In this document: positions 24-4,604 of the stretch, in pieces
Numbering within the stretch: position 1 is the first letter of the stretch
Layout: each line of letters begins with the position of its first letter
Source: a virus
Lineage: Duplodnaviria; Heunggongvirae; Uroviricota; Caudoviricetes
DNA length: 5,652 nucleotides
Virus record (IMG/VR): IMGVR_UViG_3300014512_000020
Location: 1 to 5,652 of that record
Direction: 5' to 3' (one strand)
Notes under the pieces: generated by a model
What the model was told of the DNA's origin: nothing
Databases searched by the model: none
Seen by the model: only the letters and a program-made list of their open reading frames with translations
Position numbers and translations under genes: made by a program

Positions 24-1994
24 ATGGCATTTAAACACTATGACGTGGTCAGGGCGGCATCGCCGTCAGACCTTGCGGATGCGCTTGCTCAAAAAATTCG
101 TGAAGGATGGCAACCATACGGCGGGCCGTTTTCTTCGTATACGGATGATGGCGCAGCACTTATTCAGGCGATTGTCGCAGAAGGTAATGTCACCACACCT
201 GTGGTGGTGAAGCCGTCGGATGGAGAAGGCGCAGTTATCAGCACCACCAGCAACCCGGAGTATTACTTTGTTGTTGCCCTGGCCGGGCAGTCAAACGGTA
301 TGGCGTATGGTGAAGGGCTTCCGCTGCCGGAGACATATGACCGTCCGGACCCGCGTATTAAACAGCTGGCGCGTCGCAGCACTGTCACGCCGGGTGGTGC
401 GTCCTGTAACTACAATGACATTATTCCTGCGGACCACTGCCTGCATGATGTTCAGGATTTGAGTAAGTTTTCACACCCGAAAGCCAGTGCAGCTCAGTAT
501 GGATGCGTGGGGCAGGGATTACATATCGCGAAGAAATTGTTGCCGTTTATTCCGGCGAATGCCGGTATTCTTCTGGTTCCGTGCTGCCGTGGTGGTTCTG
601 CATTTTTGGCGGGCGATGAAGGTACCTTCAGCGAATCCACCGGCGCAAGCGAGACCTCGGCACGCTGGGGTGTAGATAAGCCACTGTACAAGGACCTGCT
701 TACCCGTACTCAGGCCGCACTGAAGGCCAACCCTAAAAATATTCTGCTTGCAGTGGTCTGGATGCAGGGCGAGTTTGATTTGAAACAGGGTGCATACGCC
801 ACTCAGCCGGGGCTGTTTGATTCCATGGTGGAAAAATATCGTTCTGACCTGTCGGAATTCGGAGGTCAGTGTCTCGGGGGCTCTCCGTCATCAGTTCCCT
901 GGATTTGTGGCGACACGACCTACTACTGGAAGCAGACTTATTCTTCGCAATACGATGCGGTGTATGGTGCATATAAGACGAAATCCGCAAAAAAAATCTT
1001 CTTTGTGCCGTTTATGACGGATGAAAACGGGCGAAATGTGGGTACCAACGAGCCGTCAGAAGATCCGGATGTTGCGGATATTGGGTATTACGGAGCCGGT
1101 GGTCGAACGGACGCCAAAACCTGGACGACGGCTGACCGTAAAACGCATTTTGGATCATGGGCACGTCGTGGGATTATTTCCGACCGTCTGGCAACGGCGA
1201 TTCTTGTGCATGCCGGGAGAACCGCTGAATTCATTACCGGAAAACAGCCTGATACGGTGAAGCCCACCGGACCTTCCGGTGAAGGTACGGAGAGAGAGCC
1301 GGAAGCTCCGGTCAGTAACCGAACCCTGATGAGTCTGCTGGCGTCCGGCGAAGACCTGGCATCACAGGGCTGGCGCTATTATCACAAACCGGCGAGCGGA
1401 GACAATGTTAACAAAAACATTGCTGAAGCGGTGGTCAGTGATGCGGGGGCTACGGGAGGTAAGGCCCTGCAACTGAATAAACCGGAAAACCACATCTGGT
1501 TTCTGGAGCATGATGCAGCCGGGCAGGGGGCAGAGTTGCTGAAGAAAGGAGGACGTGTGAGCGTACGGTTTAAGTTGCCGGGTTCACTGGTGCCGAATCA
1601 GTTTGCCCTGGGCATTTACTGGCAGTTGTCGTCCCTGCCGGAGGGAGTGACGCTGGCAGAGGAAGGCAACGACATGCTGATGTCCTTCTTCCTGCAGACG
1701 GATGCGACGAACCTGAACGCGATGCACCACAAGAAGCCGAATGCGAAGCTGGATACGTTCGGGGTCTTTGATAACGGATGGCACACACTGGCTTTTGAGT
1801 TTGCCGGAAACAACAGCATTCAGGTGACGCCGGTACTGGATGAGAAACGGGGGACGCCGTTCACACTGGTGAAATCTCCGGCATCAGGGGCGGCGGACAA
1901 ACTGCAACTGACAGGCATATCAAAGGCGGCGACATATACGCTGCTGATTGACAGTGTGAAGGTGGAAGTGAACAACGCGGATGCCGCGGCATGA
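24..1994 (+). CDS. nanS-p: Prophage sialate 9-O-acetylesterase, NanS-p-like (N-terminal DUF1737-like region, SGNH/SASA esterase core, C-terminal putative carbohydrate-binding region), 656 aa
   Basis: Long uninterrupted ORF with good RBS. N-terminus MAFKHYDVVRAASPSDLADALAQKIREGWQPYGG is the characteristic start of prophage NanS-p/933Wp42-type proteins. GQSN block with the putative nucleophile Ser90 (nt 285..296) is typical of the SASA/SGNH family. Size and position upstream of a lysis cassette match Stx-phage architecture. Domain names are from memory, not from a search. Confidence 0.85.
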   Translation: MAFKHYDVVRAASPSDLADALAQKIREGWQPYGGPFSSYTDDGAALIQAIVAEGNVTTPVVVKPSDGEGAVISTTSNPEYYFVVALAGQSNGMAYGEGLPLPETYDRPDPRIKQLARRSTVTPGGASCNYNDIIPADHCLHDVQDLSKFSHPKASAAQYGCVGQGLHIAKKLLPFIPANAGILLVPCCRGGSAFLAGDEGTFSESTGASETSARWGVDKPLYKDLLTRTQAALKANPKNILLAVVWMQGEFDLKQGAYATQPGLFDSMVEKYRSDLSEFGGQCLGGSPSSVPWICGDTTYYWKQTYSSQYDAVYGAYKTKSAKKIFFVPFMTDENGRNVGTNEPSEDPDVADIGYYGAGGRTDAKTWTTADRKTHFGSWARRGIISDRLATAILVHAGRTAEFITGKQPDTVKPTGPSGEGTEREPEAPVSNRTLMSLLASGEDLASQGWRYYHKPASGDNVNKNIAEAVVSDAGATGGKALQLNKPENHIWFLEHDAAGQGAELLKKGGRVSVRFKLPGSLVPNQFALGIYWQLSSLPEGVTLAEEGNDMLMSFFLQTDATNLNAMHHKKPNAKLDTFGVFDNGWHTLAFEFAGNNSIQVTPVLDEKRGTPFTLVKSPASGAADKLQLTGISKAATYTLLIDSVKVEVNNADAAA

Positions 1995-2635: not shown

Positions 2636-2710
2636 CCATGCGCAGGGGGTGTCGGTGTGAGCTGATGCCCCACTTGTTGTTGTGAGCTTCCGGATTGCGG
2701 GAGACGGGGT

Positions 2711-2925
2711 ATGTACCAGATGGAAAAAATCACAACAGGTGTGTCATACACCACGTCAGCGGTGGGAACGGGCTNNNNNNNNNNNNNNNNNNNNNNNNNN
2801 NNNNNNNNNNNNNNNNNNNNGCAATAGGCGTGCTGGGGAGTCTGCTGTTTGGGCTGCTGACATATCTGACTAACCTGTATTTCAAAATCAGAGAGGACCG
2901 GCGTAAGGCGGCGCGGGGAGAGTAA
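2711..2925 (+). CDS. S: Holin S, phage-21 S21-like class II (pinholin-type) with dual-start motif M1-Y-Q-M4; central part masked by N
   Basis: N-terminus [21 protein letters not shown] (2711..2773) and C-terminus [34 protein letters not shown] (2821..2922, stop 2923..2925) both match lambdoid/Stx-phage S21-family holins from memory. GGGAG sits 7 nt upstream of the ATG. The two halves are in different frames across the 46-N run, consistent with a true gap of 47 nt (about 71 aa in total). Confidence 0.75.
2775..2820. other. Run of 46 ambiguous bases (N) inside the holin gene: an assembly gap or masked segment
   Basis: Read directly from sequence. Confidence 0.99.
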
Positions 2926-2926
2926 A

Positions 2927-3280
2927 GTGATGAATAAAAAATATGAACTGGTTGTTAAGGGGATAAATAATTACGGGGATAAGGTTACTGTTACTGTGAA
3001 GCCGGAAGGTGACAGGCAAGCGTCGCTGTTGTTGCCAGATGTGGCGATTAGTCTTGACCGTACTGAAGGTGCCACGCTGGAGTTTTACGAAGCTGAGGCG
3101 AAAAAGCAGGCGAAGCAGTTTTTCATGGATGTTGCTGCCGGGTTATGTGAAGGGGACGAACCGTTGCCGGAAAAGCGCCCCGTAATTTTAGAGGCGCAGA
3201 ATGTGTTGATAACCTACAAAGGAAAGCTACCGGGAAGAATTACTTGTTCTCTGAAGACTCCACCGGAATCACAACCTTAA
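2927..3280 (+). CDS. Hypothetical soluble protein, 117 aa, inserted between holin and endolysin (MMNKKYELVVKGINNYGDKVTVTVKPEGDR...)
   Basis: ORF begins 2 nt after the holin stop (GTG 2927 or ATG 2930) with GGAG at 2917..2920. No TM segment or signal peptide is evident; no family recognised. Compact spacing within the operon supports it being a real gene. Confidence 0.6.
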   Translation: MMNKKYELVVKGINNYGDKVTVTVKPEGDRQASLLLPDVAISLDRTEGATLEFYEAEAKKQAKQFFMDVAAGLCEGDEPLPEKRPVILEAQNVLITYKGKLPGRITCSLKTPPESQP

Positions 3281-3343
3281 TTCACTGACCGGAACAGATA
3301 AACCTGTCCGTGGGCAGAAACCGATAAATCCTGATAAATATCC

Positions 3344-3868
3344 ATGAACGCAAAAATCAGATACGGCCTGTCGGCTGCCGTTCTGGCGCTGGGTGCGCCT
3401 GCGCCTGACATTCTCGACCAGTTTCTGGATGAAAAGGAAGGTAACCACACCACGGCATACCGTGATGGTGCGGGTATCTGGACTATCTGCCGCGGTGCCA
3501 TCCTGGTGGATGGCAAACCTGTCGTTCCGGGCATGAAGTTGTCGAAGGAAAAATGCGACCAGGTTAACGCCATTGAGCGTGATAAAGCGCTGGCGTGGGT
3601 GGAGAAAAACATCAGAGTGCCACTGACCGAACCCCAGAAAGCGGGGATCGCGTCATTCTGTCCGTACAACATTGGTCCCGGTAAGTGTTTCCCGTCGACG
3701 TTTTATAAACGAATTAATGCAGGTGATCGCAGGGGAGCGTGTGAGGCGATTCGCTGGTGGATTAAGGACGGTGGCAGAGACTGCCGTATTCGTTCAAACA
3801 ACTGCTACGGTCAGGTATCCCGTCGTGACCAGGAGAGCGCGCTGGCGTGCTGGGGAATCGACAGATAA
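3344..3868 (+). CDS. R: Endolysin R, T4-lysozyme-like glycoside hydrolase family 24 muramidase, phage-21 R21-like; possible N-terminal SAR segment; 174 aa
   Basis: Catalytic triad spacing E32-x8-D41-x5-T47 (EGNHTTAYRDGAGIWT), characteristic of true lysozymes. The C-terminal segment KRINAGDRRGACEAIRWWIKDGG resembles R21 and P1 Lyz. The N-terminal Gly/Ala-rich weakly hydrophobic stretch YGLSAAVLALGAPAP is consistent with, but short for, a signal-anchor-release domain. Confidence 0.9.
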   Translation: MNAKIRYGLSAAVLALGAPAPDILDQFLDEKEGNHTTAYRDGAGIWTICRGAILVDGKPVVPGMKLSKEKCDQVNAIERDKALAWVEKNIRVPLTEPQKAGIASFCPYNIGPGKCFPSTFYKRINAGDRRGACEAIRWWIKDGGRDCRIRSNNCYGQVSRRDQESALACWGIDR

Positions 3869-3958
3869 GCAGAATATTTTGCTGAAAAATAAGGTATGGC
3901 CACGCGGGCGGATAACACGAAATCCTGCGAACTGGCGAAACGTAAGTGAATAAAAGTA

Positions 3959-3997
3959 AAAACCCCGTTTGTTGGCACCAAGCGGGGTTTTGTGTTT
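3959..3997 (+). terminator. Intrinsic-terminator-like hairpin: stem aaaaccccgtttg / caagcggggtttt (13 bp with one G-U), 7-nt loop, followed by a T-rich tract; A-run upstream makes it potentially bidirectional
   Basis: Read directly: arms 3959..3971 and 3979..3991, loop ttggcac, then gtgttt. It lies between the endolysin stop and the small ORF at 4028. Confidence 0.55.
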
Positions 3998-4027
3998 CCT
4001 GACTCCGGAAAAGTCAAAGGAGAAAGT

Positions 4028-4165
4028 GTGTTTGATTTTAGCAAACTGATTCGGGAGATTCGAGTGATGGCTGAAAAATTATCCACCTGGAAGTTCATTC
4101 TTATCTGGCTGGTGTTTGTGATTATGGCCTCCGGTTATTTCATCGGTCAGATACGCTGGTGGTGA
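4028..4165 (+). CDS. Hypothetical small single-pass membrane protein, 45 aa from GTG 4028 (or 32 aa from ATG 4067), translationally coupled to Rz
   Basis: Strong SD AGGAG (4018..4022) 5 nt before GTG 4028. Hydrophobic core WKFILIWLVFVIMASGYFIGQI. Stop TGA at 4163..4165 is 1 nt before the Rz ATG at 4167. No family recognised. Confidence 0.45.
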   Translation: MFDFSKLIREIRVMAEKLSTWKFILIWLVFVIMASGYFIGQIRWW

Positions 4166-4166
4166 A

Positions 4167-4604
4167 ATGAACCGCGTACTGTGCGTGGTCATCATTGCCC
4201 TGCTGGTGGCCTGTGGTGCGCTTAGTCTGGGGCTGAATCATTACCGTGATAACGCCATGACCTACAAAGAGCAGCGCGATAAAGCCACATCCATCATCGC
4301 TGATATGCAGAAGCGTCAACGTGATGTAGCAGAACTCGACGCCAGATACACAAAGGAGCTTGCTGATGCTAACGCGACTATCGAAAGTCTCCGTGCTGAT
4401 GTTTCTGCTGGTCGTAAGCGCCTGCAAGTCGCCGCCACCTGTGCAAAGTCAACGACCGGAGCCAGCAGCATGGGCGATGGAGAAAGCCCAAGACTTACAG
4501 CAGATGCTGAACTCAATTATTACCGTCTCCGAAGTGGAATCGACAAGATAACCGCGCAGGTTAACTACCTGCAGGAATACATCAGGACGCAATGCCTGAA
4601 ATAA
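4167..4604 (+). CDS. Rz: Rz, i-spanin (inner-membrane spanin subunit), 145 aa
   Basis: N-terminal TM helix, then the NHYRDNA...QRDK...RQRDVAELDARYTKELADA segment closely matching lambda Rz; coiled-coil-rich periplasmic domain; sits downstream of the endolysin. Confidence 0.9.
   Translation: MNRVLCVVIIALLVACGALSLGLNHYRDNAMTYKEQRDKATSIIADMQKRQRDVAELDARYTKELADANATIESLRADVSAGRKRLQVAATCAKSTTGASSMGDGESPRLTADAELNYYRLRSGIDKITAQVNYLQEYIRTQCLK
4366..4551 (+). CDS. Rz1: Rz1, o-spanin (outer-membrane lipoprotein subunit), embedded in the +1 frame inside Rz, 61 aa
   Basis: AAAGGAG (4353..4359) 6 nt before ATG 4366. Signal peptide MLTRLSKVSVLMFLLVVSAC with lipobox VSAC, followed by the Pro-rich mature part CKSPPPVQSQRPEP, as in lambda Rz1. 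The ORF track starts at 4360 (TTG); ATG 4366 is preferred. Confidence 0.8.
   Translation: MLTRLSKVSVLMFLLVVSACKSPPPVQSQRPEPAAWAMEKAQDLQQMLNSIITVSEVESTR

What the first reader, a model, noticed from the sequence alone, without database searches (positions are those of the whole stretch)
2927..3280. Unrecognised 117-aa gene wedged between holin S and endolysin R
In phage 21, which this lysis cassette resembles, S and R are adjacent. Here a compact, soluble-looking 117-aa ORF with its own SD sits 2 nt after the holin stop and 63 nt before R, so it is co-transcribed with the lysis genes from the late promoter. It has no TM segment, signal peptide or motif I recognise. A gene in this position is either a lysis-timing accessory factor or a late-expressed moron such as an anti-defence or host-modulating protein.
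Basis: partly seen in the sequence, partly recalled or inferred. Interest (0 to 1): 0.6.

Follow-up and report, generated by a model that had tools for sequence, protein, structure and literature searches.

The report
YdfR-family gene between holin and endolysin
The ORF is real, but it is a catalogued prophage gene (YdfR family, Pfam DUF1327) that sits between the holin and endolysin genes in over half of complete E. coli genomes; its role is unproven, and the only experimental lead is that the K-12 homologue associates with RNase E and RNA.

Summary
A 116-codon gene (ATG 2930 to stop 3280) starts 4 nt after the pinholin S stop and ends 63 nt before endolysin R. It has no membrane segment.

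It is not unrecognised. It matches Pfam DUF1327 (E 3e-41) and is 96.6% identical to a RefSeq 'YdfR family protein'. E. coli K-12 ydfR (Qin prophage) is a homologue. The family is tiny and confined to Escherichia/Shigella lambdoid prophages. It lies between S and R in all 11 loci examined.

It is optional for lysis. Phage 933W joins S directly to R at the same junction. Only 101 of 369 phage records that share this S/R DNA encode it.

It is under purifying selection (dN/dS about 0.3), but this is several-fold weaker than on S and R.

AlphaFold gives a confident N-terminal domain (three strands plus a long helix, residues 1-73). No fold match is significant.

No function is proven. The best lead is a 2026 paper: residues 1-72 of K-12 YdfR bind the catalytic half of RNase E, and the protein co-purifies with RNA.

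My working model is a late-expressed modulator of host RNase E or RNA (about 35-40%). A lysis-timing role (about 25%) is the main rival. The gene is a known kind and of modest interest.

The parts
2711..2925 (+). Pinholin S (class II, S21-like holin) with a dual-start motif MYQM. The sequence at 2775-2820 is masked as N.
   Evidence: tblastn with 933W S: 100% identity over residues 1-21 and 97% over 38-71. The N run is located. RefSeq annotates 'class II holin family protein' at the equivalent position in L001.
2915..2922 (+). Shine-Dalgarno GGGGAGAG inside the 3' end of S. It serves ydfR here and serves R in 933W.
   Evidence: Anti-SD duplex of -8.5 kcal/mol upstream of ydfR in the window, H-19B and L003, and upstream of R in 933W. 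Junction alignment.
2930..3280 (+). YdfR-family (DUF1327) coding sequence: 116 aa plus stop.
   Evidence: Pfam PF07041 at E 3e-41. PHROG 2091/1085/406. 96.6% identical to the RefSeq YdfR family protein in L001. dN/dS 0.3-0.4.
2930..3154 (+). N-terminal domain, residues 1-75: strand, strand, short helix, strand, long helix. It contains the conserved motif DRxEGAxLEFYEAxA. This is the only part shared with K-12 YdfR.
   Evidence: AF2 pLDDT of about 70-88 for residues 1-73 in two independent models. 46% identity to K-12 YdfR over residues 1-74. Invariant columns.
3155..3277 (+). C-terminal module, residues 76-116 (EKRPVILEAQNVLITYKGKLPGRITxSLKTPP). It is highly conserved in sequence but not confidently modelled. 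Other alleles replace or extend it.
   Evidence: Nearly invariant columns 80-112. pLDDT below 50. Alternative C-termini and 176/183-aa long forms. P0148 carries this module behind a different N-terminus.
3281..3343 (+). Spacer between ydfR and R. Its last ~22 nt (CGATAAATCCTGATAAATATCC) are a conserved AT-rich leader with no SD. It holds three GATAAA copies.
   Evidence: The leader is identical in the window, L001, H-19B, L003 and L004. Anti-SD pairing is 0.3 kcal/mol or weaker. GATAAA at 3297, 3323 and 3333. No stable RNA fold, z = -0.58.
3344..3868 (+). R, an R21-like (SAR-type) phage lysozyme of 174 aa. It carries a 3-aa in-frame deletion in the N-terminal hydrophobic segment.
   Evidence: Pfam PF00959 at E 3e-24. 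Alignment with four relatives.
4167..4604 (+). Rz i-spanin, with the likely Rz1 o-spanin ORF embedded at 4360-4551. This is the remainder of the lysis cassette.
   Evidence: Pfam PF03245 at E 7.5e-37. Embedded +1-frame ORF with a lipobox-like VSAC.

Best explanation
Identity (shown): the ORF is a member of the YdfR/DUF1327 family. This is a small cytoplasmic accessory protein of lambdoid and Stx-type Escherichia prophages. The gene sits exactly at the S-R junction of a pinholin/SAR-endolysin cassette.

Expression (inferred from anatomy): it takes over the strong SD at the end of S, starts 4 nt after the S stop, and has no promoter of its own. It should therefore be made only late, from the Q-dependent late transcript, together with the holin.

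Role in lysis (inferred): it is not part of the core lysis machinery, because closely related cassettes work without it.

Mechanism (inferred by homology, not shown for this protein): the conserved N-terminal domain of three strands plus a helix binds the catalytic N-terminal half of host RNase E, RNA, or both. This has been reported for residues 1-72 of the K-12 homologue. The protein would then adjust RNA turnover or the fate of late phage mRNA at the end of the lytic cycle. The swappable C-terminal modules would tune or localise that activity.
For: Identity:
- Pfam DUF1327 at E 3e-41.
- RefSeq 'YdfR family protein' at the same position in a 98%-identical E. coli prophage.
- 46% identity to K-12 YdfR over residues 1-74.

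Fixed position: S stop, 4 nt, then ATG in 11 of 11 loci, with R always downstream. The viable phage mEp460 has the same layout.

Accessory status: 933W has S-TAA-GCTG-ATG(R) at the same junction. 101 phage records carry YdfR, against 369 that share the S/R DNA.

Expression logic: SD of -8.5 kcal/mol, and no sigma-70-like promoter on the + strand between 1900 and 4300.

Real, selected gene: dN/dS is 0.25-0.45, against 0.07-0.14 for S and 0.03-0.11 for R.

Experiment on the homologue (PMC13232886):
- YdfR(1-72) was isolated in a bacterial two-hybrid screen.
- Full-length YdfR gave a signal with Rne(1-597).
- Rne(1-598)-FLAG co-eluted with Strep-YdfR.
- The eluate held DNase-resistant nucleic acid.
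Against: - The RNase E and RNA data are for the K-12 allele, which is 46% identical in the N-domain and has an unrelated C-terminus.
- Those data come from overproduction. RNA-dependence of the co-purification was not tested for YdfR.
- Full-length YdfR gave no two-hybrid signal with full-length Rne.
- Overproduction changed few transcripts and did not affect growth.
- The N-domain is acidic (pI 5.0), which is unusual for a direct RNA binder.
- The gene's strict position inside the lysis cassette would fit a lysis-related role at least as naturally.
Confidence: 0.38

Rival explanations
1. Lysis-timing or lysis-dosage factor. In one version, YdfR acts in the cytoplasm on the lysis proteins, for example on the basic C-terminal tail of the pinholin or on pre-export SAR endolysin. 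In another version, the gene's presence alone resets R translation. It takes over the S-linked SD and leaves R with an SD-less AT-rich leader, possibly with YdfR binding that leader RNA.
For: - Invariant position between S and R in 11 of 11 loci.
- The SD that drives R in 933W drives ydfR here. R then has no SD (0.3 kcal/mol or weaker) behind a conserved 22-nt leader holding repeated GATAAA.
- In K-12 the ydfR stop overlaps the R start, which implies translational coupling.
- The Keio ydfR deletion scored as envelope-leaky in a genome-wide screen (PMC3879167 supplement).
- Soluble cytoplasmic antiholins exist in other phages (T4 RIII, P1 LydB; from general knowledge).
- RNA co-purifies with K-12 YdfR.
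Against: - Near-identical S and R work without it in 933W-type phages.
- ydfR alleles recombine independently of S and R. L001 and L005 have identical S proteins, but YdfR is 55% identical.
- YdfR evolves 4-8 times faster than S and R by dN/dS. That is not expected for a tight partner of conserved S or R.
- It has no membrane segment and no similarity to known antiholins in Pfam or PHROGs.
- The Keio phenotype is unvalidated. It could be a polar effect of the kan cassette on the rrrQ endolysin gene (my inference). The neighbouring essQ/ydfS deletion is not among the hits.
- The leader has no stable structure.
Confidence: 0.25
2. A late-expressed moron that counters a host or competing-prophage defence, or otherwise modulates the host. 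It would have no direct link to RNase E or to lysis. Its place in the cassette would reflect only a permissive insertion site.
For: - Presence/absence polymorphism and mosaic exchange of N-domain types and C-terminal modules.
- Constraint is relaxed relative to neighbouring genes, and divergence is concentrated in residues 23-40. This pattern is common in conflict genes.
- The family is very narrow and young: 54 representatives among 1.84 billion, all from Escherichia/Shigella.
- The surrounding late region is rich in morons, including a NanS-p-like esterase and DUF826.
Against: - Nothing links it to any defence or anti-defence family. PADLOC gave no hit and the fold searches found no informative neighbour.
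- Late expression is atypical for anti-defence genes (general knowledge).
- dN/dS stays well below 1.
- This reading does not explain why the insertion site is the same in every locus.
Confidence: 0.15
3. A functionless remnant: a hitch-hiking ORF kept only because it lies between two selected genes.
For: - Many truncated, frameshifted or fused versions exist in the databases.
- The K-12 allele has lost the conserved C-module.
- Close allele pairs give dN/dS of 0.6-0.9, but on very few substitutions.
Against: - dN/dS is 0.25-0.45 over divergent pairs, with dS up to about 0.8-1.7.
- There are about 30 invariant residues and an almost invariant C-module.
- Intact copies occur in viable phages (H-19B, BP-4795, mEp460) and in more than half of complete E. 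coli genomes.
Confidence: 0.05

Closest known systems
YdfR of the E. coli K-12 Qin cryptic prophage (b1555; Pfam DUF1327, NCBI 'YdfR family protein')
   Same: Same family by HMM. Same genomic slot between the class II holin (essQ) and the lysozyme (rrrQ). Same strong SD at the end of the holin gene. N-domain 46% identical, including DRxEGAxLEFYEAxA.
   Different: The C-terminal 40 residues are unrelated. K-12 YdfR is 103 aa and its stop overlaps the R start, whereas here a 63-nt spacer follows. The RNase E and RNA association was shown only for the K-12 protein.
   Same: Homologous pinholin S, R21-like endolysin and Rz/Rz1. The last codons of S, the SD and the 4-nt spacer before the next ATG are identical.
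   Different: In 933W the ATG after S is the start of R and no ydfR is present. Here the ATG starts ydfR, and R follows with its own SD-less leader and a different N-terminal sequence (MNAKIRY against MSRKLRY).
Phage-encoded RNase E modulators (T4 Srd, phiKZ Dip, T7 gp0.7; from general knowledge)
   Same: Small phage proteins that bind host RNase E to alter RNA decay during infection. This is the activity proposed here by analogy with K-12 YdfR.
Soluble cytoplasmic antiholins (T4 RIII, P1 LydB; from general knowledge)
   Same: Small soluble proteins encoded with lysis genes that modulate holin triggering.
   Different: No homology was detected by Pfam or PHROGs. No lysis-timing effect has been shown for any YdfR.
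Double-stranded RNA-binding domain (dsRBD)
   Different: It lacks the N-terminal helix alpha-1. The basic residues lie two turns into the helix, not at its N-terminus. There is no Pfam dsrm hit, and Foldseek finds nothing significant.

Membership tests
YdfR / DUF1327 (PF07041) | Scores above the curated Pfam gathering threshold over the whole model | tested here: met
   139.9 bits against a cutoff of 25, E 3.1e-41, model positions 1-92 of 93.
YdfR / DUF1327 (PF07041) | Lies between a class II (S21-type) holin gene and an R21-type lysozyme gene in a lambdoid prophage late operon | tested here: met
   The order S, YdfR, R holds in the window and in 11 of 11 other loci carrying a YdfR homologue, with 4 nt between the S stop and the ydfR ATG. 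RefSeq annotation of L001, K-12 Qin and mEp460 agrees.
YdfR / DUF1327 (PF07041) | Conserved core motif DRxEGAxLEFYEAxA and N-terminal YELxVKG | tested here: met
   These residues are invariant or nearly invariant in alignments A2 and A5 and are present in K-12 YdfR.
YdfR / DUF1327 (PF07041) | Binds the N-terminal catalytic half of RNase E and co-purifies with RNA (reported for K-12 YdfR only) | not testable with these tools
   PMC13232886. Testing it needs a pull-down or a multimer structure prediction for the window allele.
Antiholin / holin-associated lysis regulator | Either a membrane-inserted holin isoform (dual start) or demonstrable homology to a known soluble antiholin | tested here: not met
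   No hydrophobic segment: the highest 19-residue Kyte-Doolittle mean is 0.59. The only Pfam/PHROG hits are families of unknown function.
Antiholin / holin-associated lysis regulator | Changes lysis timing when deleted or overexpressed | not testable with these tools
   This needs induction curves for an in-frame deletion. The only indirect data are an unvalidated envelope-leakiness hit for the Keio ydfR mutant.
dsRBD (PF00035) | Alpha-beta-beta-beta-alpha fold with an HMM match and the KKxAK motif at the N-terminus of helix 2 | tested here: not met
Known anti-phage defence system components (PADLOC) | HMM match to a defence-system protein model | tested here: not met
   No families at E <= 1 for the window protein or for three longer relatives.

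The most novel reading that the evidence does not exclude
YdfR could be a new type of temperate-phage late regulator that acts on RNA inside the lysis cassette. Its N-domain would bind RNase E, RNA or both. Its target would be the late or lysis transcript itself, for example the conserved SD-less, GATAAA-repeat leader of the downstream SAR endolysin. YdfR would then set the amount or timing of endolysin synthesis relative to the pinholin. This would be an RNA-level lysis clock component that has not been described for lambdoid phages.
Probability: 0.12. Interest if true: 0.65.

Novelty: already known. Interest (0 to 1): 0.3.

Why it matters
The gene family is catalogued, but its function is unknown. 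It occurs at about 6,700 places in 58% of complete E. coli genomes. It sits inside the lysis cassette of many Shiga-toxin phages: nearly all Stx1a and Stx2c records carry it, and almost no Stx2a records do. If it modulates RNase E or endolysin expression, it would affect when and how efficiently these prophages lyse the cell and release toxin. It would also assign a function to a K-12 gene that still has none. For this window, the result is that the ORF is an ordinary, already annotated prophage gene.

Tried and rejected
Searches that gave no assignment:
- PDB sequence search: only chance hits, E 1.5.
- NCBIfam: no family.
- PADLOC: none.
- Foldseek against BFVD and PDB: no match at E <= 1e-3.
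- The AFDB50 fold library was unavailable.
- Exhaustive phmmer over 1.84 billion representatives found no distant relatives, only 54 close or fragmentary ones.
- Pfam on the long forms and the alternative C-termini: nothing above threshold.
- A second AF2 run on the 183-aa long form did not improve confidence for the C-module.

RNA and regulatory elements:
- Rfam: nothing near gathering score.
- RNA fold of the ydfR-R spacer: z = -0.58, so no structure.
- No + strand promoter, so a lysogen-expressed moron with its own promoter is unlikely.

Ideas considered and set aside:
- dsRBD membership was rejected. The domain lacks helix 1, the basic motif is in the wrong register, and there is no HMM hit.
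- I looked for support for a polar-effect explanation of the Keio ydfR envelope phenotype. The essQ/ydfS and ybcR deletions are absent from the hit tables, so this stays undecided.

Not available:
- The phage 21 record M65239 is not in the collection.
- Literature searches for DUF1327/YdfR found only the 2026 RNase E paper with functional data.
- Stx-phage comparative papers do not discuss the ORF.

Full report

Yes. The six-frame ORF list gives 2927..3280 on the + strand, 117 aa from a GTG.

The sequence reads ...GGGGAGAG TAA A GTG ATG AAT AAA.... The holin stop is at 2923-2925, the GTG at 2927 and the ATG at 2930.

Relatives keep the ATG but not the GTG. H-19B has TAAAGTGATG, L003 has TAATTCAATG and K-12 has TAATCCAATG. 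RefSeq annotates the 98%-identical E. coli locus from the ATG. The product is therefore 116 aa.

The SD (GGGGAGAG, 2915-2922) pairs with the anti-SD at -8.5 kcal/mol.

The protein has no membrane segment. Its highest 19-residue hydropathy is 0.59, its pI is 5.5, its N-domain is acidic and its tail is mildly basic.

It is not a chance ORF:
- Pfam DUF1327 at E 3e-41.
- Three PHROG families at about 1e-61 to 1e-63, all of 'unknown function'.
- dN/dS of 0.3-0.4 against alleles about 64% identical.

**2. What is around it?**

The window is the late-operon segment of a lambdoid, Stx-phage-like prophage. In order it holds:
- a NanS-p-like SASA esterase (24-1994);
- a DUF826 gene (2366-2635);
- the S21-type pinholin S (2711-2925, with 46 masked bases);
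- this gene;
- the R21-type lysozyme R (3344-3868);
- Rz with an embedded Rz1-like ORF (4167-4604);
- a KilA-N/ORF11CD3 protein.

The closest complete E. coli genomes are 98% identical over 86% of the window. They annotate the gene as 'YdfR family protein'.

**3. What is it?**

It is a member of the YdfR/DUF1327 family. The name-giving gene is ydfR (b1555) of the K-12 Qin cryptic prophage. That gene lies in the same slot, between essQ (holin) and rrrQ (lysozyme).

The window protein and K-12 YdfR are 46% identical over residues 1-74 and unrelated after that.

The family is very small:
- A word-indexed search of 5.8 billion proteins found 254 clusters.
- An exhaustive phmmer scan of 1.84 billion representatives found only 54. 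All are close relatives or fragments.
- Among one genome per species for 185,579 species, only Escherichia and Shigella records carry it. The two exceptions are MAGs labelled as Bacillota (one of them Veillonella) whose loci look like E. coli, so I take them as contamination.

Within E. coli it is very common. ydfR-like DNA occurs at 6,733 places in 3,159 of 5,426 complete genomes. The R gene occurs at 11,149 places in 4,428 genomes.

**4. Anatomy across relatives**

In every locus with a YdfR homologue (11 of 11), the gene starts 4 nt after the S stop and R follows. The viable phage mEp460 has the same layout.

In phage 933W, the same S 3' end, SD and 4-nt spacer lead straight into R. So ydfR occupies exactly the S-R coupling site.

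It is dispensable for lysis as such. 369 phage records share this S/R DNA, but only 101 encode YdfR. By record name:

| Phage record name | Records with YdfR | Records sharing S/R DNA |
|---|---|---|
| Stx1a | 41 | 47 |
| Stx2c | 15 | 17 |
| Stx2a | 2 | 124 |

This skew probably reflects phage lineage.

Where ydfR is present, R has lost the S-linked SD. It is preceded instead by a conserved AT-rich leader, CGATAAATCCTGATAAATATCC, with no anti-SD complementarity. In K-12 the ydfR stop overlaps the R start.

The protein is modular:
- The N-domain comes in at least two sequence types.
- The C-module (EKRPVILEAQ..ITYKGKLPGRIT.SLKTPP) is nearly invariant.
- Some alleles replace that module. In the abundant 176/183-aa forms it is followed by a helical extension.

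Alleles recombine independently of their neighbours. L001 and L005 have identical S proteins, but their YdfR proteins are 55% identical.

Constraint on ydfR is real but 4-8 times weaker than on its neighbours:

| Gene | dN/dS |
|---|---|
| ydfR | 0.25-0.45 |
| S | 0.07-0.14 |
| R | 0.03-0.11 |

**5. Structure**

AlphaFold2 with a 20-sequence alignment gives a confident N-domain (pLDDT about 70-88). Its elements are strands at 6-14 and 18-26, a short helix, a strand at 38-43 and a long helix at 50-73. Residues 72-116 are low-confidence.

A second run on a 183-aa long form reproduces the N-domain. It adds a low-confidence helical hairpin.

- Foldseek against the PDB and BFVD gives nothing at E <= 1e-3.

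The fold is therefore a generic three-strand-plus-helix module. Its resemblance to RNA-binding modules is a lead, not an assignment.

**6. Function**

No function is established. The literature held here contains one functional study, Göpel et al., RNA Biol 2026 (PMC13232886). It reports:
- Residues 1-72 of K-12 YdfR were isolated three times in a bacterial two-hybrid screen with RNase G as bait.
- Full-length YdfR gave a signal with Rne(1-597).
- Rne(1-598)-FLAG co-eluted with Strep-YdfR.
- The eluate contained DNase-resistant nucleic acid.
- Overproduction had little effect on the transcriptome and none on growth.
- RNA-dependence of the co-purification was not tested for YdfR.

A genome-wide CPRG screen lists the Keio ydfR deletion among envelope-leaky mutants (PMC3879167 supplement). 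The kan cassette sits directly upstream of the rrrQ endolysin gene, so a polar effect is possible. That is my inference, and my check of neighbouring deletions was uninformative.

My ranking of the explanations:
- About 0.38: a late-expressed accessory protein whose conserved N-domain engages RNase E, RNA or both.
- About 0.25: a lysis-timing or R-dosage role. This is favoured by the fixed position and the SD swap. It is disfavoured by 933W-type cassettes that work without it, by independent recombination, and by faster evolution than S and R.
- About 0.15: an unrelated host-modulating or anti-defence moron. There is no supporting hit.
- About 0.05: a functionless remnant. This is contradicted by the selection signal.
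- The remaining probability is for something not yet conceived.

**7. Comparison with what is known, and novelty**

Membership of DUF1327/YdfR is met on every testable criterion. Membership of the dsRBD, antiholin and defence families is not met. The gene is therefore already known as a catalogued family of unknown function. Their accessory-gene reading is reasonable but unproven.

**8. Verdict**

This is a real, ordinary, already annotated prophage gene. The interest is modest (0.3). It rests on the fact that a very common gene inside the lysis cassette of Stx-type phages still has no established function, and that clear experiments could settle it.

Noticed in passing
window 3344-3868 (codons 17-19 of relatives missing, near 3392): The R endolysin has an in-frame 3-aa deletion (IAA/IGA) inside its N-terminal hydrophobic SAR/signal-anchor segment. 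The comparison is with a 98%-identical E. coli prophage, 933W, H-19B and Qin. The rest of the protein is intact. The deletion might alter membrane tethering or release of the endolysin.
   Followed up: partly
window 3281-3343: R is preceded by a conserved AT-rich leader with no Shine-Dalgarno, CGATAAATCCTGATAAATATCC. The leader is identical in five loci whose ydfR 3' ends and upstream spacers differ. Three GATAAA copies lie within 42 nt. The window holds 9 GATAAA, all on the + strand, against 2.45 expected, and 0 of 200 shuffles reach 9. No stable RNA structure is predicted.
   Followed up: partly
window 2775-2820: A run of 46 N (masked sequence) lies inside the pinholin S gene. The flanking parts match 933W S at 97-100% identity, so the gene is probably intact.
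   Followed up: yes
window 3959-3991 and 3992-4165: A strong terminator-like hairpin (13 pairs) followed by a T-rich tail sits between R and Rz. A 57-aa ORF with a hydrophobic C-terminal half follows it. RefSeq annotates nothing in the equivalent gap of the 98%-identical locus. 933W carries an ant gene in this R-Rz gap.
   Followed up: no
window 2646-2671: A second terminator-like hairpin lies just upstream of S. The S-ydfR-R block is therefore bracketed by two hairpins inside the late operon.
   Followed up: no
phage collection: YdfR presence is skewed by Stx subtype. By record name it is in 41 Stx1a and 15 Stx2c phage records but only 2 Stx2a records. The records sharing the S/R DNA number 47, 17 and 124 respectively. 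This probably reflects phage lineage, but it could matter for lysis and toxin-release kinetics.
   Followed up: partly
L001 vs L005 (S 3781-3993, ydfR 4001-, R 4371- in L005): The mosaic breakpoint falls exactly at the S/ydfR junction. The S proteins are identical (dS 0.06), while YdfR is 55% identical and R has a dS of about 1.06. The junction is a recombination hotspot.
   Followed up: partly
L007 and L009 (genome contigs): Two MAGs labelled Veillonella parvula and Bacillota carry E. coli-like S-ydfR-R loci. Their R is 88% identical to the window's. This is most likely binning contamination by Escherichia DNA.
   Followed up: no
window 24-1994: A 656-aa NanS-p-like esterase (DUF1737 + SASA + DUF6645) lies upstream, as it does downstream of stx in Stx phages. 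No stx gene lies inside the window.
   Followed up: no
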